The translations under genes were made by a program, and so were the position numbers. The notes below the pieces were generated by a model, which was given only the letters and a program-made list of their open reading frames with translations, was not told where the DNA came from and ran no database searches. A DNA stretch of 56,305 nt. Origin: an uncultured virus (IMG/VR IMGVR_UViG_3300042446_001322) (lineage: Duplodnaviria; Heunggongvirae; Uroviricota; Caudoviricetes). Shown one piece after another: positions 1 to 45,285 of the stretch. The stretch is taken from the IMG/VR virus record IMGVR_UViG_3300042446_001322; one strand, written 5' to 3'. The first letter of the stretch is position 1. Each line of letters starts with the position of its first letter.

Positions 1-3000
1 GCTGTTGATTTAGCTGTTGATGGATATAGAGCTGTTAATACTACACTTAAAGAAGCAAATAGTATCAATGGTGCTAGAAAAATGTGGAAAGGAGCAGAAA
101 CTTTTGGCAATAATAAACTTGTTAAATTTTTAAATCCACTTGAAAATACATATAGTGCAGTTATGGGCATTGGTAAAAATGCAGATAACTTAACAGGTCT
201 TGCAAGATTATCACGTGAAACTAGTAAAACAGCAGGTGGTTTATTCAGAGATGTAAGAAATATTAATATGGCATTATCAGAAGCCCGTCTAGAAGGTGGT
301 ATGAATGATAATAAAGTATATGATGAATTATATGATGAATACTACAGAAAGAATGAAAGAGCTCCAAGTGATGAAGAGCAATATGAAATGACTAAAACTG
401 CAAAAGCATCTGGTATAAATACATTGATGTGGAATACTGCATTAATATTTGCATCAAATAAAATTGTACTTCCTAACTTAATGAAATCCGGTGCAGGTAA
501 AAATGCAATTGGTAATAAGTTAGATGATGTATTAACCATGAAAGATGGTAAAGTTGTACTTGAAAAAAAATTTGATGCAGGTAAAAAAATTGCAAAAGGT
601 GAATTTACATATGTTGCTAATTCATTTAAAAACTCACTTAAAGGATTTAAAGCTGCTCCAATTAGAACTACTGCTAAAGTAGCTGGAACATATCTAAAAG
701 GTAATTTACTTGAAGGTGTTCAAGAAAACTTACAAGATGTTATATCAGTAGCTAATGAAGAATACTATATTAATTCATATAAGAATAAAGAATTAGGTGC
801 TCACTTATATAATAAATCACAAAGTTCATTAATGCTAGATGGATTAAAAAATCAATTCTCATCACAGGGATTTGAAACATTTGCTTCAGGTGCATTAATG
901 GGTTTATTTTCTGGTGGATTAAACTTAATTAAAGGAGGTTTAGATGCAGGTTATAATAATATATTTAATAAAGAAGAATATAATACATATAAAGCAGAAA
1001 GAAAAACACATGGTGAAAATGTAGCAAAACAATTAACTGCATTGTATAATGACCCTAATGAATTCTTTGACCCAAAGTTATTTAATTATGGTAATCAAAA
1101 TAATGTTGTAGCAAATACAGAAGATGCAGATACTAAAGATAAAAAAGATGATTTGCGTGATGCATTCATGAGTCAAGTATGGACATCATTAAGTTCTAAT
1201 ACACTTAATTATTTTAAAGATCATATCTCTTCATTTAAAGATGTAACACCAGAAGAGTTTGAAGATGCATTTGGATTTGAAAAAGGTACTGGTATTGAAA
1301 GACAAGGTAAAATTGATACTATTATATCTAAGATAGATGATGTTAAAAAAACATATGATTATGCAAGTGATAGATTTCCTAATCCAATTGACTTAAGTAA
1401 ATATGATAAAGCTTTACCTGAATATAGAGAAGCAGCATTACTTAGTAGAGCTTGGAATGAAGGGGTAAGGCAATATGTTTTTTCAAACCATAAATATATG
1501 GACAATGTTGATAGAATGGTAAGTATTTCTGGTACCATTCTAGATAATCCATCTATGAAAAAGATGTCTCAAACAGACATGCAAATGATACTTCAACCTT
1601 CAAAAATAAATGATGAAGTACAATTACTTAAATCAGAAATAGAAGGGCTTAGTCAATTAACTGATTCTAAGTCTAAAGCAGAATTATTAAAAAAACAAAA
1701 TAAAGTAACAGCTTTAGAAGAATATGCATCTGCACATAATATGCATGAAGCATACTATAACAGTTCTACAAGAGATCAGTTTATTAATGATTTATTTGAA
1801 GAAGTAAAAAAACAACAAGGTGTTGCAGAATTAACAGAAGATGATAAAAAACAAATACTTGAGATTCAAGAAAATGCAGTTGATAATGATTTAGAATTAG
1901 CATATAAAAACTTTTTAAAAGTTGCAAATGGCATTGATTCATCTTATATATTTGATACTGATGTTGATGAAAGTTTTAGTAAGCTTAAAGATCATTATAA
2001 AATAGATGAAGAAACAAAAGATCTTGTTAAACAAATTAATTTAATGCATGACCCAAAGTTTTTTATGGGTCAAGTTAATAAATCTAAAGTTTGGATGACT
2101 AATATGTACAATAATAGAAAAGACTATTTTGTAGATATGGTTAATAAGCAAATTAATGGATTAGAAAATAATACATTCTTAAATGCATTAGCTGATAAAA
2201 ATATATTCATGGATCTTGAAGAATTTCAAAATTATATGGATAATAATGTTCCACCTAAAGAATTTCTTAATGATACTACAAAACAAGTAATAAAACCAGG
2301 TACTATTGAATATGCATTAATATTTGATATGCTACAAAAGAATAAAGAATTAAAAACTCAAGAGACATCAAAAGAAACATTTGAAGAAAAATTACAAACA
2401 GTACTTGATGGTTTAGATATAGCAGAACAAAAAGAAATTGATAAGCTAGAAAAAACTGAAGTTAAAACTAAAGTTAAAACAGTTAAGAGAGAGGGTATAA
2501 AAATTAAAGATGTTGCTATTGAAATTGCACTTGGAGAATATGTAGATATAACAATTGAAAAAACAGATCAGGTATTAACATTATTTAGTTCTGCTGAAGG
2601 ATTAAGAAATAATAATAAAGATGGTGACGTAATTAGCATTAAGGATATCAAGGATACATTCTCTGAATATACAATTTATAAACTTGAACTTAAACCAAAT
2701 GCAGCAGAGGTTAAAGAAATAAATAAAAAATATACAGATCTTAAGAAAGAAGCAATAGATAAATTTAAAGCTGAAAAAAGTAAAAATGAATTAAAACAAT
2801 ATTCAATATATACTGAGTTAAAAGATTTCCCTAAAGACTTATACAAAGAGTTGCAGGCTGAATTTAATAAATCTGAAGAACTAGCAGCTGCATCTGATGA
2901 AGACTTATCTGATGAAGAGATATTAGATATGTTTAAAGCATTTATTGAAAAAGATGCTAATGCTAAAACTATTATAGATAATTATAATGGTAAAAATGCA

Positions 3001-4881
3001 GAAGAAGTAAAAAAAGAAGAATCTGGTGAAATAGAGGAATTTGATTTTCAATATAATAATAAAACTGAAAACACTTCTAAATTTGATAATGAGCAAATAA
3101 AAACTTTAAGTAGTCAATTTAAGAATTTTAGAGATAGTGAAACTGATCCTGTAAAAAAAGAATATTATGCAAAGGTGGTTAATGATTTTAAAAAATTAAT
3201 TGCTACACGTTTACTAAAAAGCTATAAACCTGATATACAAGAGACAATAAGAATTATAAAAGAAAAGTTAACTGATCAACAAGGAAGAGCACAAAAAATA
3301 GGTCAACTGGGTTATTTAGTAAATAATAAAATTCTTGAAAGAGTAACTAATTTTATACAAGGTTTAAAAAGTAATAAATATAAATACACAGGAAAACAAA
3401 TAATAACTAATGCTTTTGATATTACTATTAATAAAACTGGATTGAATAAAGAAAGCATTGATGCTTTCATGACTGAGATTGATGAAAAATTAATGCCAAC
3501 TCCAACAAAAGATACAGGATATACAAAAGATACTCTTGATGGTGTTGCATCCACTTCAAATAATTTAAGAAATTACTTAAATGATATACTTGAAAATAAA
3601 GAAACAAATGGTCTTAAGAGTAAAAAAGATCAGTTAGATGCAATACAAAAATATATATCTGATAATGCATATGAGTATACAAGAAAAGCTGGTGATTATT
3701 TAGATGAGCAATTAAAAAGTTTCTTTACTAAAGGAGAAAAACCAGAATTTAAAGAATCAGAAATTATTAGAGAAGCATTTGATGATATATTTGGACCTAA
3801 AGGTTTTTTAAAACCCATTAAACAAAAAATAGATTCAGGTGAGTTATATGTATTAGCAAAAAATCTTGTAGTATTTGATGAAGAAAGTGGTATTGCTGGT
3901 GAAATGGATTTACTGCTTATTGATAAACAAGGTAAATTACACATAGTAGATTTTAAAACTGGTGAACAAAAAAAATGGAATGGCTTTGTTGAAGGAACAG
4001 ATTCAGGTTTAAATAAAACTGAAGACTATACTCTACAACAATATACTTATGCTAGATTATTAAAAAAGATGACAGGACTTGATGCTGAAATAAACATCAT
4101 GCCTATTGAAATAAATATTAATAAATATAGATATCAAATTGGAACTGTAAATGAACCTACTAATAAAAAGTTATTAGGTTTAGATAATTGGTATTTTCCA
4201 TTAGATCCTAATTTTGCTGATGCTAAAACTAAAATAGATAAAGAAATTAGTATTACAGAACCTGTTATTACTGAGCCTGTTATTACAGAACCTGGTATTA
4301 AAGTAGCTACAGAAGTAAAATTAAGTGATGAAGATAAAACTAAACTAGGTAGACTTGGTTATAAATCTGAATTTTATAGACAGCTTTCTAAAGAAGACTT
4401 AACAAAAATACTTCAAGATAGTATTCCAATTGAAGTGTTTACTAAAGAGCAAACAATAACTGAAGAAAAACAAGTTACAAAAGTATCTGAACTTACTTTT
4501 AAAAATGGTGATACTGTTATAGTTGAGAAAACAATACCTGGTAGAAAAAATGATCCTGATTTTGCTTCAGTAGGTGCAGTAATAACTGTTATAGAAACTA
4601 CAGAAAAAGGTGTCAGATTTACATACATGGGACGCCAAAAAACATTATCTTTGTCTGAGTTAGATAAATATGTTACAACAAAAACTATTGAGAAAACTAA
4701 AGAAGCTGAAAAGGGTGATGAAGTTTTAGATGCAATAGATCAAGACTTAATTGCTGAGTCATTAAAAGTATTAAAAGATTTTATTTCTAGTGATACAAAT
4801 ATAAATAAAGCAAAAACAAATGCTAATGATAAAACATTAGTAGAGATTTATGATGAATTATTAAAATACTTAGATTGTTAA
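1..4881 (+). CDS. Giant virion cargo protein with C-terminal PD-(D/E)xK nuclease-like domain (5'-truncated)
   Basis: Frame is open from base 1, so the true start lies outside the window. Motif GIAGEMDLLLIDKQGKLHIVDFKTG...YTLQQYTY at ~3890-4050. Directly precedes the virion RNAP gene. Ends in Cys. Confidence 0.7.
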   Translation, partial: AVDLAVDGYRAVNTTLKEANSINGARKMWKGAETFGNNKLVKFLNPLENTYSAVMGIGKNADNLTGLARLSRETSKTAGGLFRDVRNINMALSEARLEGGMNDNKVYDELYDEYYRKNERAPSDEEQYEMTKTAKASGINTLMWNTALIFASNKIVLPNLMKSGAGKNAIGNKLDDVLTMKDGKVVLEKKFDAGKKIAKGEFTYVANSFKNSLKGFKAAPIRTTAKVAGTYLKGNLLEGVQENLQDVISVANEEYYINSYKNKELGAHLYNKSQSSLMLDGLKNQFSSQGFETFASGALMGLFSGGLNLIKGGLDAGYNNIFNKEEYNTYKAERKTHGENVAKQLTALYNDPNEFFDPKLFNYGNQNNVVANTEDADTKDKKDDLRDAFMSQVWTSLSSNTLNYFKDHISSFKDVTPEEFEDAFGFEKGTGIERQGKIDTIISKIDDVKKTYDYASDRFPNPIDLSKYDKALPEYREAALLSRAWNEGVRQYVFSNHKYMDNVDRMVSISGTILDNPSMKKMSQTDMQMILQPSKINDEVQLLKSEIEGLSQLTDSKSKAELLKKQNKVTALEEYASAHNMHEAYYNSSTRDQFINDLFEEVKKQQGVAELTEDDKKQILEIQENAVDNDLELAYKNFLKVANGIDSSYIFDTDVDESFSKLKDHYKIDEETKDLVKQINLMHDPKFFMGQVNKSKVWMTNMYNNRKDYFVDMVNKQINGLENNTFLNALADKNIFMDLEEFQNYMDNNVPPKEFLNDTTKQVIKPGTIEYALIFDMLQKNKELKTQETSKETFEEKLQTVLDGLDIAEQKEIDKLEKTEVKTKVKTVKREGIKIKDVAIEIALGEYVDITIEKTDQVLTLFSSAEGLRNNNKDGDVISIKDIKDTFSEYTIYKLELKPNAAEVKEINKKYTDLKKEAIDKFKAEKSKNELKQYSIYTELKDFPKDLYKELQAEFNKSEELAAASDEDLSDEEILDMFKAFIEKDANAKTIIDNYNGKNAEEVKKEESGEIEEFDFQYNNKTENTSKFDNEQIKTLSSQFKNFRDSETDPVKKEYYAKVVNDFKKLIATRLLKSYKPDIQETIRIIKEKLTDQQGRAQKIGQLGYLVNNKILERVTNFIQGLKSNKYKYTGKQIITNAFDITINKTGLNKESIDAFMTEIDEKLMPTPTKDTGYTKDTLDGVASTSNNLRNYLNDILENKETNGLKSKKDQLDAIQKYISDNAYEYTRKAGDYLDEQLKSFFTKGEKPEFKESEIIREAFDDIFGPKGFLKPIKQKIDSGELYVLAKNLVVFDEESGIAGEMDLLLIDKQGKLHIVDFKTGEQKKWNGFVEGTDSGLNKTEDYTLQQYTYARLLKKMTGLDAEINIMPIEININKYRYQIGTVNEPTNKKLLGLDNWYFPLDPNFADAKTKIDKEISITEPVITEPVITEPGIKVATEVKLSDEDKTKLGRLGYKSEFYRQLSKEDLTKILQDSIPIEVFTKEQTITEEKQVTKVSELTFKNGDTVIVEKTIPGRKNDPDFASVGAVITVIETTEKGVRFTYMGRQKTLSLSELDKYVTTKTIEKTKEAEKGDEVLDAIDQDLIAESLKVLKDFISSDTNINKAKTNANDKTLVEIYDELLKYLDC
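4252..4296 (+). repeat. 15-bp in-frame tandem repeat x3 (ITEPV-ITEPV-ITEPG linker)
   Basis: attacagaacctgtt / attactgagcctgtt / attacagaacctggt. Confidence 0.85.
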
Positions 4882-4885
4882 TATT

Positions 4886-7800
4886 ATGGTAAACTGTTCA
4901 TTATCACCAACACAAGTTGAAAATTTATATAAGTTAATATATAAACAAATGCTTAATTCTTTAGAGGATAATTCTTTTAATCAAGAAGCATTTATGACTG
5001 ACCTATTTGAAAAAATAGAACAAAAAGCAGATATTAATACAGCATCTACTTTTTTACAAGTTGTACCTGTTTTAATGAAAGAGGCACTTGAACAAGATGA
5101 ATTAGGAAATGTTAATTTTGATTTAAATATTAATAGGGAATTAATAAATAACTTTAAAAATACAGAAAACGGATTATTTAAAACATTAAAATATTTTAAA
5201 CCTGAAGCTACTTTAGCAGATTTAGAAATCAGTATGGAAATAGAAAAAGGTATAATAAATACTCCTGAATCAGATCAAGGTGATGAATTAACTGATATAC
5301 TTAATGATCCATTTAGATGGCAAGCAGATGATGCTTTAACTTCTACAATGCAAGAACTTTCTACTAGAAAACCTGATGAAAAAGACACTGGAGCTAAAGA
5401 AAAAAAAGATCCTAATAAAGAAAGAATATATAGAGCAATAAGAAAGATTAAAGAAAAAGGTGTAAGAAAAGAAGGTGGACCTGAATTAATTTATCAAGGT
5501 AAAGTATTAAAATTAAAAACAGTAAAATTATTAAGTCTTAATGCTAAAAATTTACTTGATAAAACTACTGTTGCATTTGTAATAAAAAGTAATTCAATAG
5601 TAGATCAAGGTACTAGTCTAGAAGATGTAACTCCTGCTAAAGATATAATTGCATTAGTAGTAACTGATGAAAATGGTGTAGAATTATTTTTTGATGAAAA
5701 TGGAAACATATCTACTAAAGAAGAAGGTGGTCAAATTGTATATCAATTTTTAAGAGATGTAAGAACTGAAAAAGATTCTAATAAATTAAGAGTTACAGAC
5801 ATATATGGTTTAGAAGATAGAATTCTTTCACCTGCAGAATTAATTGAAAAAGATGCTCATAATAGTAAAATGAGTATGGAGTCATATAAAAAATGGTTAA
5901 TTGACCAGGGTACTACATATGAAGAATTACTTGTTGCAGTAGATAATAAACAACAAGAAAGCTTTAAAGAATTACAAAATTTAAGAGATGATGCACGTGC
6001 AGATAAACCTAAATTATTAAACATAACAGATATTAGTGCTGGTATTACTGATGTTTTCTTTTCTGAAACAAGTACAACATTAGATGACTTTCTTACTAGT
6101 AGTAAAAAAACATTTGAAGATTTAGATCTTCAAATTAATCCAGATAAATTTACTGCTCAAGTATATGTAAATGATACTTATTATACAATTGATAGACCTA
6201 ATTTACCTGAAGAATACATAAATCAAATTGCTGCTGTATTAGTAAATCCTAAATTAACTAATGAACAGAAAAATAATTTTTATTTACAGTTTACTAATAA
6301 TAATATTAATAGAGATAAAAGAAAATTACTTGTATTTTATGATTCAGTAACAAAAGAATTAACAGCTAAATATAGAACTAAGTCTTCTGAAAGTGCTCAA
6401 TTATTTGATTTATCAGCTTCTGGTGCTGAAAAAATTATAATTGACAGTTTATTGTATGAAAGTACATATGTTAAAACTAATGGTGAAACAGAAATTTATG
6501 CTACTACCATGGGTTATAATAAAGATTTACTTATAAGTAAAGGTGTCAGTAAATTTTATACATATGACCGTACTACTGATAAACTTATAGCTAAGTCATA
6601 TAAAGATTTTCTTAATGGATTAGACTTAAAAGTTTTAAAACCAGATACTGAAAAAAATGATAAAGATAAAGCAGTAAATAATCCATATTTTCAATTTAGA
6701 ATTGATAAAGATTTTATTGCTGAAACAGAAGAAGTTAAAGAAGCAACAACATCTACTCCTGTAGATAAAATTAAAGAAACTAAAGATAACCTTGTTGCTA
6801 AATTAAAAGTTAATAAAGATTTATCTGGTACTATATACAGTGGTAAAGCACTTACAGATGCTACATTTGAAATGATGATAGATGGTGTACGTGTAGAAGG
6901 TAGATATGAGGATGGTAAACCAATTGCAGGTATAAAAATTGGTGATCCGGTAACATTTATAGTTAATGATGTATCTCCTACTATAACTGATGTGATATCA
7001 ATATATAAAGGAGATAAAAAAATAGGTCAAGTAAGTCAAACTGATTTTACCTTAAAACCAAAAACTCCTAAAGCAACTGTTACTCCACAACAAAAAGCAG
7101 CTGAAAAAGATAAACCACTTACTAATCCAGATAAAGTTGGTCAAGCTGATGATACAACTGGTATAAGTGATGCATTTGATTTAAATAGATCTGCTAAATT
7201 ACCTAATAATGTTACTCAAGAAGAAATTACTGCTGCTCAAGAATGGTGGGATAATTCTCCATTATCTAAACTTATTAAACTTGAGCACATGGCTAACATT
7301 GTTAACTCTGATGTTTATGCAAGATTTATTATAGCAGGTAAAAGATTAGAGGATACTAAAATACAATTAGATACTGCTACTGGTAGTTCTGCTGTAGATT
7401 TATACCATGAAGCTTGGCATGCATTTTCTCAATTATATTTAACTAAGGATCAAAAAACTAAGTTATATGCTGAGACAAGAAAAAGATTAAATAACTATGA
7501 TCTTTCTCCAATTGAAGTAGAAGAAATTATTGCTGAAGACTTTAGAGATTATGCTAAAAATCCTCAAACTATAAAAGATGGGCCAACAAGAAATAGTTTA
7601 TTCAGAAAAATCTGGAATTTCATTAAAGCATTATTTGGTAAACAAAATACTAAAGATGAGTTATTTGAGAAATTATTTTTTGCAAGTAAAAACCCTAAGC
7701 TTTTAAACAAATATACTCCACTTGTTGATAACCATATGTTCAACACTCTTAATAGAGCAAGAGGTATAGTCAACACTGAAACAAAAGAACTTGTTTTAAA

Positions 7801-10800
7801 TTATCAAGATAGTCTTAAGGTATCAAATCAAATTGATTCTGCTTTATCACAGATTATTGATGAAGTGTATAATGATAGACTTAATAAAAATATTAATAAA
7901 GTTAAAGATCTAGCAGGAAATATAGTAACAGTAAATAAAACTGGAACTATTCAGATATTAACTATTGATAAAAATAAAAAAGAAGCTTATGCTAGAATTG
8001 AATTAAGATTTAATAAAAGACTTGATAAATTCAAAACAGAACTAGAAACTACTCCTCAAGAAGATTTTAATAAAAGAAGTTTATTAAATAATAAAATAAG
8101 AATAATAGAAGAAGCACTTGCTAATTGGGATAATGTATTAGAGTTTCATAAAGAACACAGTACATTTGATTTAATTAAACAAAAGTACATTGAAATAAAT
8201 GAAGAAGAAACTGAAATAGATGAAGATAAAACTGGTACAGAAGTTGTTGAAGAATCTGAAGCAGTATCTAAAAGTGAAGTAGGTGAAAAATCATTATTAC
8301 AATTAGCTGAAAAAGAAACTCTTTACATTCTAAAAAGTCTATTTAAAATAGTTGATGGTAAACAAGTAGAAGGGCCATTAGGTTTTCCAGAATTAGTTGA
8401 CTTTAGTAAAATATGGAATACAGTTACTAAAGTAATTGGAGGTGAAAAGAATCCAGTTAAAATGTATCTTAAACTTCAAGAAGCTATACCTTTTTATCCA
8501 GAATTAGCACAACTTGTAAATAATAAATTCCCAGATCCAAGAAATATTAAAACATTACAAGAATTTAATATCAAAGCAGCATTTTGGCAAGATTTTAAAA
8601 AACCTTTAATAAGATATGTTCAATTAACAGTTGATACAGATAAAGAAACAGGTAATTATAAATCTGAAGTAACTGATGCTTCAATTGAATTTAAAAATAT
8701 TATAAATAGTTTTAAGAGTGCATTTAATTCATCTGCAGAAACTAAATATATCAGTAAAAATGAAAATAATAAATCAGCATTAAAACTTGATACACTAATT
8801 AAAGCTTTTCCTACTACTGCATCTATTGCTTTACCTGCACAACAGATTGAATTTGTTAATGCATTAGGAATTGGTTTACAAGATTTAAAAAGTATTAAAG
8901 ATGAATTAGGTTCTAAAGACTATAGTATTTTTTATATATATCAAATTGCAAAAGCAGTTGATACATTAAATAAAGATTCTAAACTTAGTAATAATGAGCA
9001 AAAAGAATTTATTAAAAAATTCATAGATAATCCTATTGATGCATTATATGGTAAAATACCTGCAGGTATATATAAAACTACTACAAGTGAAAAAGCTGTA
9101 ATACAAAACTTAGCAAAATTACAAAGTAAATATGGTAATAATTATGCAAGTTTTAGTGTATTAAATGCAGAGAAAAAACTTGTAAATGAATTTACAGAAG
9201 ATAGTAGTGTTACTATGATAGTAGATGCTATTAACAATGTTAAAAATGGTAGAGATTTATGGATGAATAAAGGATATAACTATATGAGTTACCTTAATCC
9301 ATTGATAAACGGTTTTACTGAGCAATCACAATTACTTAAAAGTATATTTGAGGTTGAAGAAAATACATGGGCAAGAAGAGGAGATGCTAAGTTAGATCTT
9401 GTAATGGTGTCTGGTACTCAAATAGTAAATCTTGATGGTGCTAATACTACTTCTCTTGATGTACATAGTAAATATATTCAAGAATTAAACATGATGTTAA
9501 AATCAGGTTTCCAAGAATTTATGAGACATGCTTCTAAGTCATCATCATTTGGTATGAAGTCTAATAAGTTAAACTTATATGTTGACATTGAAAAATTTAA
9601 ACCAGGAGGAGATGCTAATCAATACGCTGTTGATAATATATTTTTAGGTTATATCCAAGCTGAGTTACTTAGAATACAAAAAATAAGAGGAAATAAAGAA
9701 GAGTATAAAAAATATGTAGGTTATAATAGAGAAATTAAATCTGCAGATGGTAAAACTGTTCTTGGAATGGCTGGTGAGTTCTTTACTGCATTTGATAATA
9801 TATTAACTAAAGATACTAAAGAAGAGATAATTGAAAAAGTAAAAGATGGTAAATTACTTGATTATTTAGAGTCAGACCCTAAATTAAAAGAAGATATAAC
9901 TGAGCAAGTAAGTGCATATTTTGAAAGACAGTCTGCTGATAACAAGAAAGATTTTCAAAAATCTAAATGGATTGACCCAGCATTAACAAATAAATTAAAA
10001 GTTTATGAATTATCAACAGATGATGAAGAAACTACGCTTATTAAAGCACATACAATGAATGCATGGATTCATAATTTTGAGACTGCTAGTTTAATATATG
10101 GTGATATTGTACAGTATAATCATGCTAAACAAGAATTACATAAAAGAAATCCAGGTTCTACTTCAGGTGGTAGAGGATTCATGGATGATCTTTATACTCA
10201 AAACTTTTTAAATAGTGACTTAATTAAAGGTACATCATATGGTGCTAAACTTGCAACTATGGATGAATTTGGTAGTGATTATGCTCCATTTAGTTACAGT
10301 AACACTTATAATACTGCTATTATGCAGGAAGTTAAAAGAAGTTCAGTATATGTTAAAAATATTGAAAAAGGTCTAAGAGAAGATTATAAAAACAGAGGAT
10401 TATCTCAAGCAGAAATTGATAAAAGACTTCTTAAAGAATTAAAACCATATAAAGATATGGAAGAGGGTGATGGTCAAGGTTATATAACTATTGATGCATA
10501 CCGTCTATTAAGACTTGCTGAAAAGAATTGGTCATCTGAACAAGAAGATTTATTCCAAAAAGTAATTAGTGGTAAAGAAGTTAGTACTGAAGATATAACA
10601 CAAATCTTTCCTGTATATAAATTACAACACTTTGGCCATTTAGCTAATACACCATTACCGGTTAATGCAATGCATAAATTTGCATTGATGCCATTAATTC
10701 CATCACTTATTGTTGGTTCTGATTTAGAGTCATTACATCACCAAATGATGAAAGGTAATATACAATATGCTACATTCCAAACTGGTTCTAAAGTAGGTAG

Positions 10801-13800
10801 TGTAACATCTCAATTAAATAAAGATGGTAAAGCAGTAGCAGATCAGATATATGATGATAATGGTGCTCAAAAAACATTAAAATCAGATATTGCTTTTACT
10901 CCAAATACAATATACTTAGCATATCTTAAAAATGTTACAGCTGTTCCAATTAAATTAAAAGGTAAAACAGTATTCTCTACTCAGTTAAGAAAACTTATTA
11001 TTGAAGGTTTATATGAGAATGGTAAATTAGTTAATCAAGAATATGCACCATTTGTTAAAGCTTATGAAGATGCTGTAAATGGTTATACTGAAATACTAAA
11101 AACTGAATTATTAAATGAAATTGGTTATGAATATAAAGATGGTAAATATGTTAGTGGTAATATAACTAAATTCATGGATGTAGTTCAAAGAGAACTTACT
11201 AGAAAAGATTTACCAGAACATTTAATTGACTATATTCAAGTTGGTTCTAATAATGTTTTAACAAAAGATTTATCATTACATATGCTTTCAGGAGACATTG
11301 AAAAAATGATAACATCACTTGTTGAAAAAAGAATCATAAAACAAAAAGTAAAAGGTGAAGCATTAGTACAGGTTGCTAGTTCTTTAACTAATGGATTATG
11401 GGATTCAGGTTTTAAATTTGAAAAAGCTCAAACTGCAGAAATAGAAAAATACTTAGGTACTAATAACTTACCTTTCTATAATCCAGGTGAAAATGGTAAT
11501 ACATCTGCAATGAAAGTTGCTATTGCATTACAAGGTGATTTTAAAAATCTTTTAAAACTGAAAGATCTTGATGGTGTAGAAATAGGTACAAGAGAAAGAT
11601 TAAATGTATTAATTAAAAATGATGAGTGGTTAAATAAAGGCAATAACCGGAAATCTGTTACTTTATCAGCTGTAAGGATCCCTGTACAAGGAATGAACTC
11701 TATGGAGTTTATGGAAGTATATGAATTTTTAGATCCAGCTGCAGGTTCTATTATTATTCCTCCATCAGAAATTGTTGCTAAATCAGGAGCAGATTATGAT
11801 GTTGATAAGCTTACTACATTCATGCCTAATATAGATGAAAATGGTAATTATGTAACATCTAATATATCTGAGGAAACATTAAAAAAATTAATTGCAAATG
11901 CAGAATCTAAAGGTGATAAAGCTGAAGTAGTTAAATTAATTGCATTACAGAAAAAAGCAATTGAAAATAGATTAATTGATTCTATCAGAGGTATATTACA
12001 ACTACCTGATAATTATGCTACATTAGTAAGACCAAATGAAACTTACTTAATGAAAGATATTGCAGATGAGTTAGTAGACTCTTCACCTGAATATGGAAGA
12101 TATAAAACTATTAGTCCAACAAATACATTAGAGGTAGGTTATAATCTAGCTAAACATGATTATAATATGACAGGGAAAGATGTATTAGGTATTATTGCTC
12201 TTGAAAATGCATTACATCCATTGTATACAGCATTAGGTGCTGCTTTACCAAAAACATATTATGGTTCAGTTAAAAATAAAAGGACTAAAAAATATGAAGA
12301 TGATAAAAGTATAATCTATGATATGAGATTATTACTTGATCATAATAAAACTGAAGATGGAAGAATTTCTTTATCAGGTATTAATAGTGTAGATGGCCAA
12401 GATAAAATAGCAGATTTATTTTCACATTTAATGAATGGTTCTGTGGATGTTGAGAAAGATGCATGGATTTTCTTTATTCAAGCTAATAAAGAACTTATAC
12501 CAATGTTGTTGAATTTACTTAAAGCTGGTGTCCCAAAAAGACAAGCAGTTTATTTTATATCTCAACCATTAGTAAAAGAATATGCAAATCAACAAAGACT
12601 ATATGCTAGTACATATGCAAATCTTACTGGTAAAGAAACATTACCTGATGAAAATGCAAAATATAATGCTCTTCAAGCTACATTAAAACAAACTGATATT
12701 AGTCAAGCTATTTTTAAAGCAAATGAAAATAGATTAAATAATACATTAGATAATCTTAATCCTAATACTATTATAAAAGTAAAACCAAAAAATAATAAAG
12801 ATTCATTTGAAATTACTGTTAAAGAATTTAAAAAATTTATTACTGAAGGTGAGATTAAATTAGACTATACTGATGCATTACTTGATATTAAAGGTAATGT
12901 AATATTTAAAAGTATAATTGCAGATCCTAATAATGCGTTTTATCACCCAATGTCTACTCCAAACTATAAAGATGTTGTACTTGCAGCAACTGAAGGTATG
13001 GATAAGTTTACTACAGCTGATTTAAAAGAGACAATGGAAAGTAATGATACTACAAGTCCAAAAGCTATTGCAATGTTCTTACATTACCTAGAATATGAAA
13101 GGCAAATAAAAGATATGGCTGATCTTAAAAGACAGTCAAATCCTGATACTGCTACTTCTAAAACTATACAGGAGATCATGCAAAGAAAAATTGGTTTAGA
13201 TATTTTATCTAGGTCATCTAAAATAGATCAAGATTTAGTAAGAAAATTAAGAGAAGAGTCTATATTAGGATCTTTCTTTGATAATGTTATTACTCAAGAT
13301 TTAGTAGAACCTTTATTTCCATTAACAGATGATAAAAGAGTATCTGATTATTTACTTAATTATATTAATAATAATAACATTCCACTTAAATTTGGTGAAG
13401 GAGCAGATGGCATAACTAATTTTATCACATCATTTAAACAAGCAATGGTAAATTATATTTATCAAAACAGATTAAATGAGATAATAACTACTAAAGAGTC
13501 ATTCCCAGGTGTACCAGAATTATTTAATTCTTTAAATCACCAAGCATATGTGACTAGATTTATGAGTATGATAAGTGAAAATACTCACTTAAAAGAATTG
13601 TATTCAGTACTAGAACAGATTACTGATGTACCGGTAAATATATTTGATTCTAAAACTAAGCAAATTAAAGGTCAGATATCTGTATTAACATTAAACAATA
13701 AACCTGTAGTAAAAGGAGCACTATCTGATAGTTATCATCAAAACTTAATTGATCTTGCTGATGAAAATGTTATTAAAGTAAAAGATCCAGTTAAGAATAA

Positions 13801-14803
13801 AAAAATATCAGACATGTTTAAGATATTACCTCTTATATCTGTTTTACAGAATGGAGTAGGTAACACTAAATATGGTCTTAGTTATGTTCTTCCTGATACT
13901 ACATACTTTGAAATAGTAGAACCAGCATCTAGAGAATTTATTTCTAATAAGATGAATACATCTACTTTTGATAAAATTGCAGCTATGATGATTGCTAATG
14001 ACCCTAATGTAAATAATTACATTGATGGTTCAATTATATTTAAACCTACTACTCAACCATCTACTCAACAACAAGCTCCAGTAGGTAAAGTTTTTGATTA
14101 TAATTATAAAATACCTTATGAAAAACTTAAAGCAGTCATACCGGCTAGTAAATTTAATTCATTATTTATTAAAATTGAGGATTTACTAAATAATTATAGA
14201 ATTAGTAAAGATGTACTTGATACTGTTCTTACTAAAAGCTCAGATAAAATGAAAGGTTTAATATTACTTATAGAAAAGCGATTTAGAAATGAAAATCTTA
14301 TATATGGTACACCTGAATTTGATTTAAATATATGGGAAGAAAATAGAAATTACCTTTCAACTCTACTACATGCTGAACTTAAAAAGATTTATCCAAATTT
14401 ACCTGCACTTGAAAAAATACAAACAGTTGCAAAAAGACAAGCTTCAGTAACTGAAGAAGAACCAGATGGACAAACTGGAGAAGGCACAACTGAAAATCCA
14501 GTACCAGAAGAAAGAAATATAATAGTAAATCAATATACTTTCACAATTAAACCAGATGGTAAAATATATTATGGTAACGGTAAAGAATTAACTGAACAAA
14601 CTATTAAAAATAAAGTGTATATTAGAAAAGAATTACAAGATGGTACATTAAGAGTGTCTACCTTTGATAAAAAAAATTATTATGTGCTTTCAGATAATAG
14701 AATAATTGATTCTGGAAAAACTGTAGGTGATGAATCTGTATTAAATTCTTTAACTAAAGAAAGAATATTAGAAGCAGCTTCACTTTATAAAAAATCTTGT
14801 TAA
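4886..14803 (+). CDS. Virion-packaged two-barrel DNA-dependent RNA polymerase (phi14:2 gp66-like) fused to a zincin-like domain
   Basis: 3305 aa. RIPVQG...SGADYDVDKL gives the catalytic DxDxD (11792-11806). DGQGY motif. HEAWH...EEIIAEDF zincin motif (7406-7420). Architecture typical of crAss-like phages. Confidence 0.88.
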   Translation: MVNCSLSPTQVENLYKLIYKQMLNSLEDNSFNQEAFMTDLFEKIEQKADINTASTFLQVVPVLMKEALEQDELGNVNFDLNINRELINNFKNTENGLFKTLKYFKPEATLADLEISMEIEKGIINTPESDQGDELTDILNDPFRWQADDALTSTMQELSTRKPDEKDTGAKEKKDPNKERIYRAIRKIKEKGVRKEGGPELIYQGKVLKLKTVKLLSLNAKNLLDKTTVAFVIKSNSIVDQGTSLEDVTPAKDIIALVVTDENGVELFFDENGNISTKEEGGQIVYQFLRDVRTEKDSNKLRVTDIYGLEDRILSPAELIEKDAHNSKMSMESYKKWLIDQGTTYEELLVAVDNKQQESFKELQNLRDDARADKPKLLNITDISAGITDVFFSETSTTLDDFLTSSKKTFEDLDLQINPDKFTAQVYVNDTYYTIDRPNLPEEYINQIAAVLVNPKLTNEQKNNFYLQFTNNNINRDKRKLLVFYDSVTKELTAKYRTKSSESAQLFDLSASGAEKIIIDSLLYESTYVKTNGETEIYATTMGYNKDLLISKGVSKFYTYDRTTDKLIAKSYKDFLNGLDLKVLKPDTEKNDKDKAVNNPYFQFRIDKDFIAETEEVKEATTSTPVDKIKETKDNLVAKLKVNKDLSGTIYSGKALTDATFEMMIDGVRVEGRYEDGKPIAGIKIGDPVTFIVNDVSPTITDVISIYKGDKKIGQVSQTDFTLKPKTPKATVTPQQKAAEKDKPLTNPDKVGQADDTTGISDAFDLNRSAKLPNNVTQEEITAAQEWWDNSPLSKLIKLEHMANIVNSDVYARFIIAGKRLEDTKIQLDTATGSSAVDLYHEAWHAFSQLYLTKDQKTKLYAETRKRLNNYDLSPIEVEEIIAEDFRDYAKNPQTIKDGPTRNSLFRKIWNFIKALFGKQNTKDELFEKLFFASKNPKLLNKYTPLVDNHMFNTLNRARGIVNTETKELVLNYQDSLKVSNQIDSALSQIIDEVYNDRLNKNINKVKDLAGNIVTVNKTGTIQILTIDKNKKEAYARIELRFNKRLDKFKTELETTPQEDFNKRSLLNNKIRIIEEALANWDNVLEFHKEHSTFDLIKQKYIEINEEETEIDEDKTGTEVVEESEAVSKSEVGEKSLLQLAEKETLYILKSLFKIVDGKQVEGPLGFPELVDFSKIWNTVTKVIGGEKNPVKMYLKLQEAIPFYPELAQLVNNKFPDPRNIKTLQEFNIKAAFWQDFKKPLIRYVQLTVDTDKETGNYKSEVTDASIEFKNIINSFKSAFNSSAETKYISKNENNKSALKLDTLIKAFPTTASIALPAQQIEFVNALGIGLQDLKSIKDELGSKDYSIFYIYQIAKAVDTLNKDSKLSNNEQKEFIKKFIDNPIDALYGKIPAGIYKTTTSEKAVIQNLAKLQSKYGNNYASFSVLNAEKKLVNEFTEDSSVTMIVDAINNVKNGRDLWMNKGYNYMSYLNPLINGFTEQSQLLKSIFEVEENTWARRGDAKLDLVMVSGTQIVNLDGANTTSLDVHSKYIQELNMMLKSGFQEFMRHASKSSSFGMKSNKLNLYVDIEKFKPGGDANQYAVDNIFLGYIQAELLRIQKIRGNKEEYKKYVGYNREIKSADGKTVLGMAGEFFTAFDNILTKDTKEEIIEKVKDGKLLDYLESDPKLKEDITEQVSAYFERQSADNKKDFQKSKWIDPALTNKLKVYELSTDDEETTLIKAHTMNAWIHNFETASLIYGDIVQYNHAKQELHKRNPGSTSGGRGFMDDLYTQNFLNSDLIKGTSYGAKLATMDEFGSDYAPFSYSNTYNTAIMQEVKRSSVYVKNIEKGLREDYKNRGLSQAEIDKRLLKELKPYKDMEEGDGQGYITIDAYRLLRLAEKNWSSEQEDLFQKVISGKEVSTEDITQIFPVYKLQHFGHLANTPLPVNAMHKFALMPLIPSLIVGSDLESLHHQMMKGNIQYATFQTGSKVGSVTSQLNKDGKAVADQIYDDNGAQKTLKSDIAFTPNTIYLAYLKNVTAVPIKLKGKTVFSTQLRKLIIEGLYENGKLVNQEYAPFVKAYEDAVNGYTEILKTELLNEIGYEYKDGKYVSGNITKFMDVVQRELTRKDLPEHLIDYIQVGSNNVLTKDLSLHMLSGDIEKMITSLVEKRIIKQKVKGEALVQVASSLTNGLWDSGFKFEKAQTAEIEKYLGTNNLPFYNPGENGNTSAMKVAIALQGDFKNLLKLKDLDGVEIGTRERLNVLIKNDEWLNKGNNRKSVTLSAVRIPVQGMNSMEFMEVYEFLDPAAGSIIIPPSEIVAKSGADYDVDKLTTFMPNIDENGNYVTSNISEETLKKLIANAESKGDKAEVVKLIALQKKAIENRLIDSIRGILQLPDNYATLVRPNETYLMKDIADELVDSSPEYGRYKTISPTNTLEVGYNLAKHDYNMTGKDVLGIIALENALHPLYTALGAALPKTYYGSVKNKRTKKYEDDKSIIYDMRLLLDHNKTEDGRISLSGINSVDGQDKIADLFSHLMNGSVDVEKDAWIFFIQANKELIPMLLNLLKAGVPKRQAVYFISQPLVKEYANQQRLYASTYANLTGKETLPDENAKYNALQATLKQTDISQAIFKANENRLNNTLDNLNPNTIIKVKPKNNKDSFEITVKEFKKFITEGEIKLDYTDALLDIKGNVIFKSIIADPNNAFYHPMSTPNYKDVVLAATEGMDKFTTADLKETMESNDTTSPKAIAMFLHYLEYERQIKDMADLKRQSNPDTATSKTIQEIMQRKIGLDILSRSSKIDQDLVRKLREESILGSFFDNVITQDLVEPLFPLTDDKRVSDYLLNYINNNNIPLKFGEGADGITNFITSFKQAMVNYIYQNRLNEIITTKESFPGVPELFNSLNHQAYVTRFMSMISENTHLKELYSVLEQITDVPVNIFDSKTKQIKGQISVLTLNNKPVVKGALSDSYHQNLIDLADENVIKVKDPVKNKKISDMFKILPLISVLQNGVGNTKYGLSYVLPDTTYFEIVEPASREFISNKMNTSTFDKIAAMMIANDPNVNNYIDGSIIFKPTTQPSTQQQAPVGKVFDYNYKIPYEKLKAVIPASKFNSLFIKIEDLLNNYRISKDVLDTVLTKSSDKMKGLILLIEKRFRNENLIYGTPEFDLNIWEENRNYLSTLLHAELKKIYPNLPALEKIQTVAKRQASVTEEEPDGQTGEGTTENPVPEERNIIVNQYTFTIKPDGKIYYGNGKELTEQTIKNKVYIRKELQDGTLRVSTFDKKNYYVLSDNRIIDSGKTVGDESVLNSLTKERILEAASLYKKSC

Positions 14804-14813
14804 TAATAATATT

Positions 14814-15572
14814 ATGGCTTGTAAACTACAAATTAAAGAAGATTTAAATAAAGAAATTGATAAAAAACTAGGTGGGTATAGAGATACTACACATAGTGAC
14901 TTTAATGCTGAAAGAATCTTAAAAGATATTAATAATGAATATCCTAAACTAGCTAGTAAAAGTGTTTTTGATAAAGATATAGTTGTAATAAACATTTCTG
15001 AAAAAGTTCTTGATAGTATTGTTGATGAAAAATATAATGCTCAATTACAAATAGAAGAAGAGTTAGCAATGATGTCTGGTGAAGTAGATTTTGATGAAAG
15101 AGATATTAGTTTTTATAATGGTGATGAAGCTTTATTTGATCAGGAAAATAGAGAAGAAGCAGAAATAGAAGTAGATGAAGAATACATAGAAGAATACCCT
15201 ATTCAAACTGAATATAAAAAAGAATTTGAGAAGACTGGTAAAAAACCAAAATCAGTTATAATTGGTGGTTCAAAAGCTATTTTAAATAATAATGATACAT
15301 ATGATATAACAGATTTATCAGGTAAAATAGTATTATTAAAAAATATTGACCTAGATACTATGGAATTAGTAGAAGAACCAGTATCTTTAAAACCATATAA
15401 TCAAAAAGCATTTAATTCTTTTGTAAATGATACTATGTTAAATCTATTTACAGAAGAACAACTTGCTTATAAAGGTATTGACATTAATGATATATTTGAT
15501 GAATTAGAAGTAATTACTACTGAATCTGAGTTAGTCAAAATAATGGTTAAAGTACTTAAAAATTTGTGTTAA
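14814..15572 (+). CDS. Acidic hypothetical protein in cargo/RNAP operon
   Basis: 252-aa ORF tightly packed between giant genes. Cys at residue 3 and at the last residue. Confidence 0.7.
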   Translation: MACKLQIKEDLNKEIDKKLGGYRDTTHSDFNAERILKDINNEYPKLASKSVFDKDIVVINISEKVLDSIVDEKYNAQLQIEEELAMMSGEVDFDERDISFYNGDEALFDQENREEAEIEVDEEYIEEYPIQTEYKKEFEKTGKKPKSVIIGGSKAILNNNDTYDITDLSGKIVLLKNIDLDTMELVEEPVSLKPYNQKAFNSFVNDTMLNLFTEEQLAYKGIDINDIFDELEVITTESELVKIMVKVLKNLC

Positions 15573-15590
15573 TTAAAAATTCTAAACAAT

Positions 15591-18500
15591 ATGTATTGCC
15601 CAATTAAAACCAGCAAAGAATATGTAAAAATACTTAACTCAGTAAATGGAAATGATACTAGAGCTGAAGAAGAATGGATTAAACAAGGTTTTGCTAATAA
15701 TAAAGATTTAAATTATATACCTGATGAATTAACTGATAATGCTGAAGTAAAAAAAGATGATATATCTACTATGGTGGATAGTATTTGGGGATATTTAGAA
15801 AAACAATTAAAAATACTTCAAGGTCAAAAATTAATTAATCAAGAAGAAAAAGAAGAAAGACAAAAAAAATTAATTGAAGAATTTAGACATCTTGAAGGTA
15901 TTAATTCTATTAACATGTTTGTTAAAGACAGTTATGAAAAAGCTTTAGAAATTGAAAAATTAATGAAAGCTATCATTAATAAAAAAGATGATGGCACAGA
16001 TGATTTTAAAAAAAATCAAATTGCTGAACTTACTAAGTTAAATAATTTTGCTAGTGGTTATAGTATTCTTGATGAAATTTCTAAAGCTGATATATATAGT
16101 TTTTTTACTGCAAAAGAAGGAGAAGAACAAGTCTCTGAAGAAACTGGTAAAACTATAAGAGAAATGTTAACAGATGCAATCTCAATAAAAAAAGCAGTTA
16201 AAGAACAATATATAAGACAGGGTATACCATTAATGGCCTCATTTTTACTTAATTATAAAAATTTAAATTTAGATGAAGCAATTGATAATGAAGTAAATGC
16301 ATTAATAAAAAAATTAGAAGCTGAAAAAACATCTGCAAATGCTAATGATAAAAAAATTAAACAGATAACAGATAGAATTACTAAATATAGATCTTTTACA
16401 CAGACTCAAGAGTCAATGGAAGATTTATTAAAATTTGCTGCTAAAGATGAAGGTTCAATGGAATTTTGGTTTGGACCATTAATAACTAATGCAGATGCTT
16501 CATTAGGTTTATTTGCAAGAGCAGTTAAAACAGAATTTGAAAGTGCAAGACAATTGGATATAGATATAGCAAAACTTGCAGGTAAAGCATTTACAAAATA
16601 TAAAGATAGTCAAGCAGAAAGCAGAGACAATCCAGCTAAGTTTAATGAAGGTTTATATGAAGTATTATCATCTTATAGTACAGATAAGAATGGTGAACCT
16701 GTTATTACTAAAAAAATGGCTTTTGTACAAAAATACCGTATGAGTGATTATAATAAAGAGTTAAATAAAATATATACTAATCCAATTAAAGGTACTGATC
16801 TTTCACCTGCTCAATTAAGAGCAAAATCTGATTATGAAGCTAATAAAACTACTATAATAAGAGACTGGTATGCTGAGAATGCACAAAAGAAAAGTGATGC
16901 AGAAATTGATAAAATTCTTGCTGAAAAAAATAAATTACTAAATTCTGGTGCTTGGAATCAAAAAGATTATGATAAATGGCATAAATCTGTTTTAAAAATC
17001 TTAGATAATGGTACTAAGATTTATATGAAAGAATTTAGTGAGCCAGCTGATAAATATCTTAATAAAAAATGGGAAGCTTTGTATGATAAAAATGATAAAC
17101 CTAAAAATGCTAAAGGGGAATACCATTCATTTTTATTAAATCTATATCTTGATGCTCAAGAAAAAGTACCAGATACTCAAAAAATGGGTTATGTTTTACC
17201 ATCAATACATAAACGTACTATAGAAAGAAGTAGTATTAAAAGTGTTATAAAAGATAAATTTGAAGATGCAACAACTATAAGAGGAGATGAACCTGAATTT
17301 GGTGTTTCAGATTTATCTAATGAAAGTGCAAAGTTTATACCCGTATACTATACTCAAGATATGGATGCTGATGAAGTAAGTTTAGATTTAATAAGATCTG
17401 TAGAACTTTATTCTCAAATGGCAAATAAATATGAATCAGTAAATAATATCTCAGCAGAAACATCAATGTTTAAAGCCATTATAGGAGATAGAGAAGTTGC
17501 TGTAACTACTTCTAAAGATGTTAAAGTATTAGATGCACTTGCAAATAAACTTGGTATTAAATCTACTATTAAAAAACAAGGTGAAGCAAATTCTAAAAAA
17601 CATGTAGATGCATTTATAAATATGCAATTATATAATGAAATGCAAAAAGCTGAAGTAATTGGAAGTTATTCTATGGGTAAATTAACAAATCTTGCTTTAA
17701 GTTATTCTGCTATAACAAGTATTGCTGCAGATTTACTTAAAGGTGTTGCAAATAATTTACAAGGTAATATCCAATTAATTATTGAAGCTAACTCATCTGA
17801 ATTTTTCAGTAGAAAAGATTTAAGAAAAGGTAAATTGTATTATGCAAAAAATGTAACCTCATTTCTTTCTGATTTTGGTAAACCAACACCTGATTCATTA
17901 GTAGGTAATCTTGTAAATCATTATGACCCAATGCAAGGTAACTATAAAGATCAGTATGGTAAAAATGTTTCAGGTAGTGTATTTGCTAAGTTAATGAGAA
18001 CAGATACACTATTCTTTAATCAGCATTTTGGTGAGCATGAGATACAAGTATCTGCAATGTTTGCATTAATGGAAGCAACTAAAGTAACTGATACTAATAC
18101 TGGAGAAACAATTTCTCTTTTAGATGCATATACTAAATACGGCATTAAAGAACTTGATAAAAATACAGATTTCAATAATACAAAGAAACTTGACTTACAA
18201 AATAGAATACATGCAATAAGTAAAAAATTACATGGTGTCTATAATGATTTTGATAAAGGTACTGCACAAAGATATTCAGTAGGTAGATTAGCTATCATGT
18301 ATAGAAAACATCTTATACCTGGTTATAAAAGAAGATATGGTAAACTTCAAGTAGATCAAGAACTTGGTGCTGTAACTGAAGGTTACTATATAACTTTTTA
18401 TAATACAATGTTAAAAGATTTGGCTAAGCTGAAACTTAATATGATGCAGAACTGGTCAACATATACACCTTTTGAAAAAGCACAAATCAAAAGAGTAATG

Positions 18501-18910: not shown

Positions 18911-19045
18911 ATGACAGGTAAAACAACAGGAAGCGCAAGTGCTTCAGTAAAAGTATCAAGACCAGGTGTACACTCTAAGAATGGTACATCTAAGCTTAAG
19001 AAATCAAAGCTCTATAAGAAAGGTTATCGGGGGCAAGGCAAGTAG
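18911..19045 (+). CDS. Small very basic protein (44 aa, ends YRGQGK), not in ORF track
   Basis: MTGKTTGSASASVKVSRPGVHSKNGTSKLKKSKLYKKGYRGQGK. Starts 5 nt after the previous stop and ends just before a terminator. Confidence 0.7.
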   Translation: MTGKTTGSASASVKVSRPGVHSKNGTSKLKKSKLYKKGYRGQGK

Positions 19046-27646: not shown

Positions 27647-28069
27647 ATCCGCACGTGTATAATCATCTAAAATCAAGAAACCACCTTCACCTTTACCTTG
27701 AATCCACTCTGGAGCAGCATGAGACATTCTACTATTACTAGTAGGTTTATATTTATTCTTAATGTAAGTTTCCATTAAAGATTCTTGGACCCATTTAGTA
27801 AAACCATCTTCTCTAACCATTTCAAATTCTTTGAATGGAAAACCAATTAAATCACCTAACTCTTCTATCTGAGAAAGATTTAATTTAATAATATCCATAC
27901 CCATTTCAGTTGCTAATTGCTTAACAGCTGAAGTCTTACCAAGACCAGCGTCACCTTCTACATTTATTGCAACAGGCACTTTACCTTCAGCTTGGATATA
28001 TTGATTATTACCAACTATGTGTTTTAAAAACCCTTTTAACTCATCTACATTTAATTGAACTTGACTCAT
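27647..28069 (-). CDS. MoxR-like AAA+ ATPase, exon 1
   Basis: Walker A GDAGLGKT and Walker B LILDD. The apparent TAA stop is the first 3 nt of the intron. Confidence 0.88.
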
Positions 28070-45138: not shown

Positions 45139-45285
45139 AACTTAATATTAAAATCTTTCCACTCTATTTTACTCTGATCAAATCCTGATAATGCTTCAGT
45201 AACCCAACTCTTATCAATAGTATCTATATAACATAGTATATGAATAGTAGCTGTCTCATCAACTGCTAGTCTTAAGCACCTACCT
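45135..45285 (-). CDS. SF2 helicase, exon 2 (not in ORF track)
   Basis: GRCLRLAVDETATIHILCYIDTIDKSWVTEALSGFDQSKIEWKDFNIKL completes motif VI (QRIGRCLR). Confidence 0.88.

What the first reader, a model, noticed from the sequence alone, without database searches (positions are those of the whole stretch)
4876..15599. Cargo proteins carry Cys only at facing termini: possible head-to-tail disulfide chain
Seen: ORF1 ends YLDC* and the RNAP starts MVNC (4876-4897). The RNAP ends KKSC* and the next ORF starts MAC (14798-14822). That ORF ends KNLC* and the last starts MYC (15567-15599). The last protein has no C-terminal Cys. Reading the four translations (~6260 aa) I find no other cysteines. Established: ejected proteins such as N4 vRNAP are Cys-free. 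Inference: the six terminal Cys link the proteins C-to-N in gene order, by disulfide or shared metal. They would be packaged or threaded out as one ordered chain and released in the reducing cytoplasm.
Basis: partly seen in the sequence, partly recalled or inferred. Interest (0 to 1): 0.88.

Follow-up and report, generated by a model that had tools for sequence, protein, structure and literature searches.

The report
Disulfide-chained phage RNA polymerase cargo
The giant proteins that crAss-like phages inject into bacteria carry a single cysteine at each end that faces the next protein, and only there, which suggests they are clipped head-to-tail into one long chain for delivery, something a simple gel on cultured gut and marine phages can test.

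Summary
Confirmed, and general. The four genes are the virion RNA-polymerase cargo block of a crAss-like phage: 6 Cys in 6,287 aa, all at facing ends. In 124 non-redundant relatives, 214 of 234 junctions carry both Cys and 73 of 73 last proteins lack a C-terminal Cys; internal Cys are 47 in 716,620 aa. phi14:2 and crAss001 follow the rule; in 11 named genomes 14 of 14 junctions do, wherever the block is split. Every extra link (12 of 12) has both Cys; window ORF3 is a two-module adapter. Charges of cognate ORF1-type/RNAP ends co-vary oppositely after tree correction (r -0.68; four controls none). Best reading: terminal docking modules pair the proteins head-to-tail and one disulfide locks each joint, standing in for the peptide bond of fused forms, so the ~6,000-aa cargo can be threaded out as one chain. 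The bond, its timing and its purpose are inferred, not shown; no complex model was obtained. Not found in nine paper searches or in term searches of the crassvirus papers I could open.

The parts
1..4881 (+). ORF1, first chain member (position of phi14:2 gp67 / crAss001 gp47); open at the window's 5' end; only Cys is the last residue
   Evidence: Weak PD-(D/E)XK match, E 2.4e-4, just under Pfam cut-off. No significant BLASTP match to gp67 (best E 0.44): equivalence is positional.
4693..4878 (+). C-terminal docking segment of ORF1: amphipathic pattern ending in Cys (codon 4876-4878)
   Evidence: Cys is the only invariant column in 52 sequences; hydrophobic periodicity before the Cys; charge anti-correlates with the RNAP N-terminus.
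4886..14803 (+). ORF2, virion RNA polymerase, homolog of phi14:2 gp66; Cys only at 4 and 3305
   Evidence: tblastn to phi14:2 g066 E 2e-19, BLASTP E 3e-28; GxDxDxDK motif at aa 2301 and HExxH at aa 841.
4886..5215 (+). N-terminal docking domain of the RNAP: six-helix bundle, Cys4 (4895-4897) on the arm before helix 1
   Evidence: Cys4 only invariant column in 52 sequences; AlphaFold2 mean pLDDT 90.9; no match above background in solved folds, best Z 5.9.
14798..14822 (+). RNAP/ORF3 junction: last-residue Cys of RNAP and Cys3 of ORF3
   Evidence: same pair in all 10 loci of this sub-clade.
14814..15572 (+). ORF3, 252-aa adapter link: N module (aa 1-87), disordered acidic linker (90-125), C module (129-252), one Cys at each end
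   Evidence: aa 122-252 match the last ~135 aa of the RNAP itself in 19 loci; aa 1-81 match the N-terminus of ~1,950-aa last members (HHalign 92%, E 6e-7); two-domain model pLDDT 76, pTM 0.35.
15567..15599 (+). ORF3/ORF4 junction: last-residue Cys of ORF3 and Cys3 of ORF4
   Evidence: this C module is followed by the ~1,100-aa last member in all strong hits, whether it sits on ORF3 or on the RNAP.
15591..18905 (+). ORF4, last chain member, homolog of phi14:2 gp65 (C-terminal part); Cys3 only; hydrophobic segment aa 969-987
   Evidence: BLASTP to gp65 E 4e-43; family N-terminal profile hits gp65 aa 8-108, E 9e-11; hydrophobic segment in 63 of 73 last members.

Best explanation
The block encodes the RNA-polymerase-associated cargo that a crAss-like phage packs in its head and injects. 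Each protein ends in a short docking segment with one Cys, and the next begins with a docking domain with one Cys. Step 1 (inferred from co-variation): cognate ends bind non-covalently in the cytoplasm, fixing order and 1:1:1(:1) ratio for packaging. Step 2 (inferred): after lysis, in air or on meeting the periplasm, the two juxtaposed Cys form one disulfide per joint, making a continuous N-to-C chain of about 6,000 aa, equivalent to the natural gene fusions. Step 3 (inferred): because cargo must partly unfold to pass the tail, docking alone would fail and the disulfide keeps the chain continuous so each protein draws the next through. Step 4 (inferred): the host cytoplasm reduces the bond. 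Absence of other Cys prevents wrong cross-links. Shown: the sequence rule, its link to gene splits, the modular ends and their charge co-variation. About 0.85 that the Cys pair at a head-to-tail contact, 0.7 that the link is a disulfide, 0.5 that its purpose is chain-wise ejection.
For: Junction rule: 214 of 234 junctions both Cys, 73 of 73 last proteins without C-terminal Cys, in 124 clusters from 166 loci picked by RNAP similarity, not by Cys. Named genomes: 14 of 14 junctions, 11 of 11 first members without N-terminal Cys, 11 of 11 last members without C-terminal Cys; summed length 5,398-6,760 aa whether split A|B|C (phi14:2, crAss001, DAC15), AB|C (Fpv1, cr118_1, cr4_1, cr1_1) or A|BC (crAss002, LMMB, cr8_1, jaberico). 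Extra links: 12 of 12 in 9 clusters have both Cys and none internal, in separate parts of the RNAP tree. ORF3's C module sits on the RNAP in 19 loci and on a separate, doubly Cys-tipped protein here. End types co-segregate across junctions and the modules of different junctions in one genome are unrelated, which would give order. Net charge, last 25 aa of first member vs first 60 aa of RNAP: rho -0.65 (n=90), contrasts r -0.68, 53 negative vs 24 positive, p 0.0013; four non-cognate or non-terminal controls r -0.05 to +0.16. crAss001 virions do contain inter-subunit disulfides in tail and vertex proteins, and cargo must partly unfold to pass constrictions under 50 A (PMC10172136, passages). On a reducing gel gp47, gp49 and gp50 were detected as virion proteins, with high-mass bands at 150, 270 and >300 kDa (PMC6235969, passages), which fits a reducible link.
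Against: No experiment shows the bond. The charge signal is weak at the RNAP-to-next junction (r -0.23, sign test p 0.053; r -0.02 with a 30-aa window) and one of nine window settings at the first junction had a non-significant sign test. Column-wise mutual information gave nothing above shuffles (max z 5.8 vs 5.85). The docking domains could not be found inside the distant AB fusions, so loss of Cys at the aligned junction is directly shown only for the RNAP/ORF3 module. Gut crassviruses of anaerobic hosts carry internal Cys (0-14 per protein), which weakens the 'no wrong cross-links' argument and raises the question of what oxidises the pair. No thiol oxidase or thioredoxin among 50 other window ORFs scanned. 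20 junctions do not fit; most are chain starts, genes past the chain end or broken genes, but L168 (Cys 18 from the end) and the fragmented L181 are unexplained.
Confidence: 0.7

Rival explanations
1. Same docking and same disulfide, different purpose: the link is a lasting tether that rebuilds a single-chain, membrane-anchored polymerase like N4 gp50 after ejection, or only stabilises the cargo in the virion; proteins need not exit as one thread.
For: Last member has a conserved hydrophobic segment (63 of 73); N4 vRNAP is one ~3,500-aa chain with loosely connected domains (PMC13434306, passages). All sequence evidence fits equally.
Against: In a reducing cytoplasm a disulfide would not last (established knowledge), so a lasting tether would rest on docking alone and would not need an invariant Cys; the Cys is more conserved than any docking residue.
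Confidence: 0.12
2. The two Cys bridge a metal ion (Zn, Cu or Fe) shared between the chains, with carboxylates as further ligands.
For: Works in a reducing cytoplasm and in anaerobic gut hosts; acidic residues and the C-terminal carboxylate lie near the C-side Cys in many sequences.
Against: A second Cys within 25 aa occurs at 2 of 214 N-ends and 0 of 214 C-ends; His near the Cys in 11 and 9 of 214; no other invariant ligand column; in several clades the C-end is basic, not acidic.
Confidence: 0.1
3. The Cys serve a ligation chemistry other than disulfide (thioester transpeptidation, splicing-like joining, lipid or other modification).
For: Strict terminal position and the fusion-equivalent pattern would also fit permanent joining; a band above 300 kDa was among those cut from the reducing gel.
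Against: N-side Cys is at position 3-8, never 2; C-side Cys is 0-9 residues from the end, so no fixed nucleophile or terminal carboxylate geometry; no other conserved catalytic residue; the three crAss001 proteins were identified from a reducing gel with bands near their separate sizes.
Confidence: 0.04
4. Each Cys pairs with its own kind (homo-oligomer), closes its own protein into a ring, or binds a common third virion protein.
For: Middle members have both Cys; several copies of each protein are packed (up to 6, PMC10172136).
Against: First members never have an N-Cys and last members never a C-Cys; both Cys appear and vanish together with gene splits; the RNAP's own two ends show no charge complementarity (r +0.14) while cognate neighbours do.
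Confidence: 0.04

Closest known systems
Crassvirales RNAP-associated cargo: phi14:2 gp67-gp66-gp65; crAss001 gp47-gp50-gp49
   Same: Homologous RNAP and last member; virion-packed, injected (bioRxiv 10.1101/2020.03.07.982082 and PMC10172136, passages); these very proteins show the same terminal-Cys rule.
   Different: The window's clade has a fourth, 252-aa adapter link and the zincin motif in the RNAP rather than in gp65 or gp47. The papers do not mention the terminal Cys or any cargo disulfide; fusions are described as polyproteins likely cleaved.
N4/DEV (Schitoviridae) ejection proteins gp50-52 / gp71-73
   Same: Giant injected RNAP; Cys strongly suppressed, 0.00075% in gp71 homologs (PMC11445570, passage).
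   Different: Unrelated T7-like polymerase in one chain; no terminal Cys reported, so no inter-chain link.
PKS/NRPS docking domains (recalled, not tested)
   Same: C-terminal helix of one giant protein binds the N-terminal domain of the next, orthogonal pairs set the order, and splits and fusions interchange.
   Different: Non-covalent, no Cys; biosynthetic enzymes, not translocated cargo; no sequence or fold match found.
A-B toxin inter-chain disulfide (recalled, not tested)
   Same: One disulfide holds an enzyme to its delivery chain during unfolded passage and is reduced in the cytoplasm.
   Different: There the chains mostly come from one cleaved precursor and are two; here separate genes, 2 to 5 members in series, no homology.

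Membership tests
Crassvirales virion RNAP (phi14:2 gp66 family) | Sequence homology to gp66 | tested here: met
   BLASTP E 3e-28, 23% over 897 columns; tblastn hits to phi14:2, Fpv and gut crassviruses.
Crassvirales virion RNAP (phi14:2 gp66 family) | DxDxD catalytic motif | tested here: met
   GADYDVDK at aa 2301, aligned to gp66 GSDFDIDK.
Crassvirales RNAP-associated cargo block | Adjacent gp65 homolog | tested here: met
   ORF4 vs gp65 E 4e-43.
Crassvirales RNAP-associated cargo block | Adjacent gp67/gp47 homolog | tested here: inconclusive
   No significant BLASTP or small-profile match; position, size (2,219-2,407 aa in relatives) and Cys pattern agree.
Crassvirales RNAP-associated cargo block | Present in the virion and injected | not testable with these tools
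   Shown for homologs in phi14:2 and crAss001, not for this phage.
Order Crassvirales (whole phage) | TerL, portal, major capsid and primase phylogeny | not tested
   Capsid block is outside the window and no genome is held; family B DNA polymerase, primase and DnaB are present.
Disulfide-linked head-to-tail chain (proposed) | Paired terminal Cys at every split, none at chain ends | tested here: met
Disulfide-linked head-to-tail chain (proposed) | Cognate ends contact each other | tested here: inconclusive
   Charge co-variation specific to cognate ends at the first junction, weak at the second; no column-level signal; no complex model obtained.
Disulfide-linked head-to-tail chain (proposed) | S-S bond in virions, reduced after entry | not testable with these tools
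   Needs non-reducing gels and disulfide mapping.
Inter-chain metal site | Three or four conserved ligands (CxxC, His) | tested here: not met
   Single Cys per end, His rare, no other invariant column; carboxylate ligands not excluded.
Intein/N-terminal-nucleophile ligation | Cys as first residue after Met removal and fixed C-terminal residue | tested here: not met
   N-Cys at positions 3-8, none at 2; C-Cys 0-9 from end, n=214.

The most novel reading that the evidence does not exclude
Crassviruses build a redox-cleavable 'virtual polyprotein': 2 to 5 separately encoded proteins are ordered by orthogonal docking modules, locked by one disulfide per joint, pulled through the tail as one ~6,000-residue thread and released by the host's reducing cytoplasm; new cargo can be spliced into the chain by giving it a Cys-tipped module at each end, as ORF3 shows.
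Probability: 0.5. Interest if true: 0.95.

Novelty: categorically new. Interest (0 to 1): 0.88.

Why it matters
[quoted passage not shown] This gives a specific, cheap test in two cultured model phages and holds in three named families that include the commonest human-gut phages. It would add a new principle of protein delivery (ordered, redox-released chain), explain why the block splits and fuses freely at constant total length, and offer orthogonal self-locking docking pairs. The label 'categorically new' refers to the linkage; the proteins themselves belong to a known family.

Tried and rejected
Stop-codon read-through as the link: junction frames 61/58/95 of 214, no excess of in-frame joints. 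Mutual information between ends: no better than shuffles. Search for junction modules inside fused proteins: too divergent. Pfam, PHROGs, NCBIfam: no informative family for the four ORFs beyond a weak PD-(D/E)XK hit and a weak radical-SAM PHROG hit on ORF3 (E 0.002) that I reject as ORF3 lacks the Cys motif. PDB sequence search with ORF2: none. ESM Atlas with ORF3: no usable hit. Fold searches: ORF3 vs viral models none at E<=0.001; RNAP head vs solved chains best Z 5.9, background level; these blanks do not show a new fold. ORF3 as a simple N-terminal piece of the long last member: rejected, it is a mosaic of two modules. My global alignment A5 misplaced the N modules and was not used. The journal version of the gp66 paper was not held; one recalled paper id was wrong.

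Full report
Observation. Other window proteins have 1.4% Cys (119 in 8,513 aa). ORF1 is cut by the window edge; full-length relatives (2,219 and 2,407 aa) have a single Cys at the last residue, and the nine complete cargo-like ORFs upstream in three close relatives have no terminal Cys, so the chain starts at ORF1.

Identity. ORF2 is a gp66-type virion RNA polymerase and ORF4 a gp65 homolog. ORF1 corresponds to gp67 by position only. The phage is crAss-like; I did not place it in a family because the capsid block is outside the window and no genome is held.

Conservation. The 166 loci collapse to 124 clusters at 90% core identity. Counting adjacent + strand ORFs of 200 aa or more, after dropping nested ORFs and ORFs with over 0.6% internal Cys (inserted endonucleases and the like), and accepting any Met in the first 40 residues as start: 214 of 234 junctions have a Cys in the last 10 aa of one and the first 10 aa of the next, 15 have neither, 4 only the N-side, 1 only the C-side; 73 of 73 complete last proteins lack a C-terminal Cys; internal Cys are 47 in 716,620 aa, about 100-fold below the filter. 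The 20 exceptions: one poly-A frameshift hiding the normal start (L005), one 189-nt break inside the RNAP (L132), three chain starts in AB fusions (L174, L177, L183), five junctions past the chain end (L174, L175, L177), one run of N (L183), eight in a fragmented locus (L181), and one with the Cys 18 residues from the end (L168).

Named genomes. Of 15 annotated records fetched, 11 with an intact block were tallied: 14 of 14 junctions carry both Cys, no first member has an N-terminal Cys, no last member a C-terminal one (crAss002 needs a start 32 codons downstream of the annotated one). phi14:2 is as clean as the window: gp67 C1797 only, gp66 C3 and C2179, gp65 C3 only. crAss001: gp47 C2339, gp50 C5, C1334, C2404, gp49 C5. 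Left out: ctcc615 (upstream gene not fetched), cr108_1 and cr116_1 (RNAP gene interrupted at the catalytic motif) and IAS virus (split RNAP, ambiguous bases); their outer ends fit, their internal breaks do not carry a clean pair. The block is split three ways across Steigviridae, Suoliviridae, Intestiviridae and Fpv1, yet totals 5,398-6,760 aa, and the zincin motif moves between members: it behaves as one polyprotein whose joints are either a peptide bond or a Cys pair.

Extra links. Twelve additional members in nine clusters, 244-1,157 aa, all have both Cys and none inside; they fall in separate parts of a 122-taxon RNAP tree (window clade; L138/L179; L163/L164; L167; L183; L160), though recombination could spread them. 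ORF3 is the clearest: its C module is the RNAP's own C-terminal domain in 19 loci, its N module is related to the start of ~1,950-aa last members, and AlphaFold2 gives two small domains joined by a disordered linker.

Contact between ends. End types co-segregate across junctions, and modules of different junctions are unrelated. The RNAP head folds as a confident six-helix bundle with Cys4 on a short arm; the upstream tail has an amphipathic pattern ending in Cys. Net charge of the two cognate ends is anti-correlated (rho -0.65, n=90; contrasts r -0.68; nine window settings r -0.53 to -0.70, eight with significant sign tests), while neighbouring non-terminal stretches, the non-cognate next-but-one N-end and the RNAP's own C-end show no such signal. 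The RNAP-to-next junction, which mixes several module families, is weak (r -0.23 and -0.02). Mutual information found nothing. No two-chain model was obtained.

Chemistry. One Cys per end, rare His, variable spacing from the terminus and no Cys at position 2 argue against a metal site and against ligation chemistry, and leave a disulfide between docked ends. crAss001 virions contain other inter-subunit disulfides (PMC10172136, passages). Against: gut members have internal Cys and anaerobic hosts; virions assemble in a reducing cytoplasm (established knowledge), so the bond must form late; no oxidase gene was seen in the window.

Mechanism. Shown: sequence rule, link to splits, modular ends, charge co-variation at one junction. 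Inferred: docking, disulfide, ejection as one N-to-C thread, release by reduction. The thread idea rests on the published need for partial unfolding in the tail.

Literature. Nine full-text searches that ran (listings only) returned nothing on terminal Cys or disulfide-linked cargo. Term searches with passages: bioRxiv 10.1101/2020.03.07.982082 (no cysteine or disulfide), PMC10172136 (disulfides only in tail and vertex proteins; peer-review file searched, first supplement a scan), PMC13434306, PMC11445570 (Cys suppression in Schitoviridae), PMC10136315, PMC7886860, PMC6235969. None was read whole. The journal version of the gp66 paper, bioRxiv supplements, theses and subscription papers were not seen, so prior notice cannot be excluded. 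Comparisons to PKS/NRPS docking domains and A-B toxins are recalled.

Verdict. Real, order-wide and apparently undescribed; a disulfide-locked head-to-tail chain is the best explanation (0.7) and is directly testable in cultured phages. Interest 0.88.

Noticed in passing
window 18911-19045 (+): A 44-aa, very basic ORF just after ORF4; tblastn finds it in 24 of the fetched loci (E<0.01), in the rows inspected right after the last chain gene; followed by a hairpin with flanking A and T runs. Possibly a small DNA-binding or core protein.
   Followed up: partly
window 18495-18551 (ORF4 aa 969-987): Hydrophobic segment; 63 of 73 last members have one, median 163 aa from the C-terminus; also in gp65 and gp49. 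Possible membrane anchor at the chain's tail.
   Followed up: partly
window 7406-7420; L084, L085, L087: The zincin HExxH motif lies in the RNAP here, in gp65 in phi14:2, in gp47 in crAss001 and near the end of gp33 in Fpv1: domains move along the chain.
   Followed up: partly
window 3838-4071: Weak PD-(D/E)XK nuclease match inside ORF1, suggesting an injected nuclease domain.
   Followed up: no
window 42670-42918 (-): Phage-encoded ClpS adaptor (PF02617, E 2e-11).
   Followed up: no
window 26841-28069 (-): Short AAA ATPase fragment followed by a GIY-YIG/NUMOD1 endonuclease; may be an intron-split gene. Two more GIY-YIG genes at 32074-32493 and 45272-46303.
   Followed up: no
L174:17837-19204, L175:13228-15318, L177:17713-20802: A different gene after the chain end with several Cys clustered near its N-terminus (positions 5, 10, 18); not counted as a chain member.
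   Followed up: no
L095-L097, upstream of ORF1 homolog: Three or more further Cys-free or nearly Cys-free ORFs of 775-1,039 aa without terminal Cys, more than the two (C1, C2) of crAss001.
   Followed up: partly
L094:14839-15130, L186:14765-15606, L132:7935-8125: RNAP gene interrupted, in cr108_1 and cr116_1 right at the catalytic motif, probably by introns.
   Followed up: no
L089, L093, L185: Gut Intestiviridae fusions carry 7-16 internal Cys, unlike the environmental loci; may reflect anaerobic hosts.
   Followed up: partly
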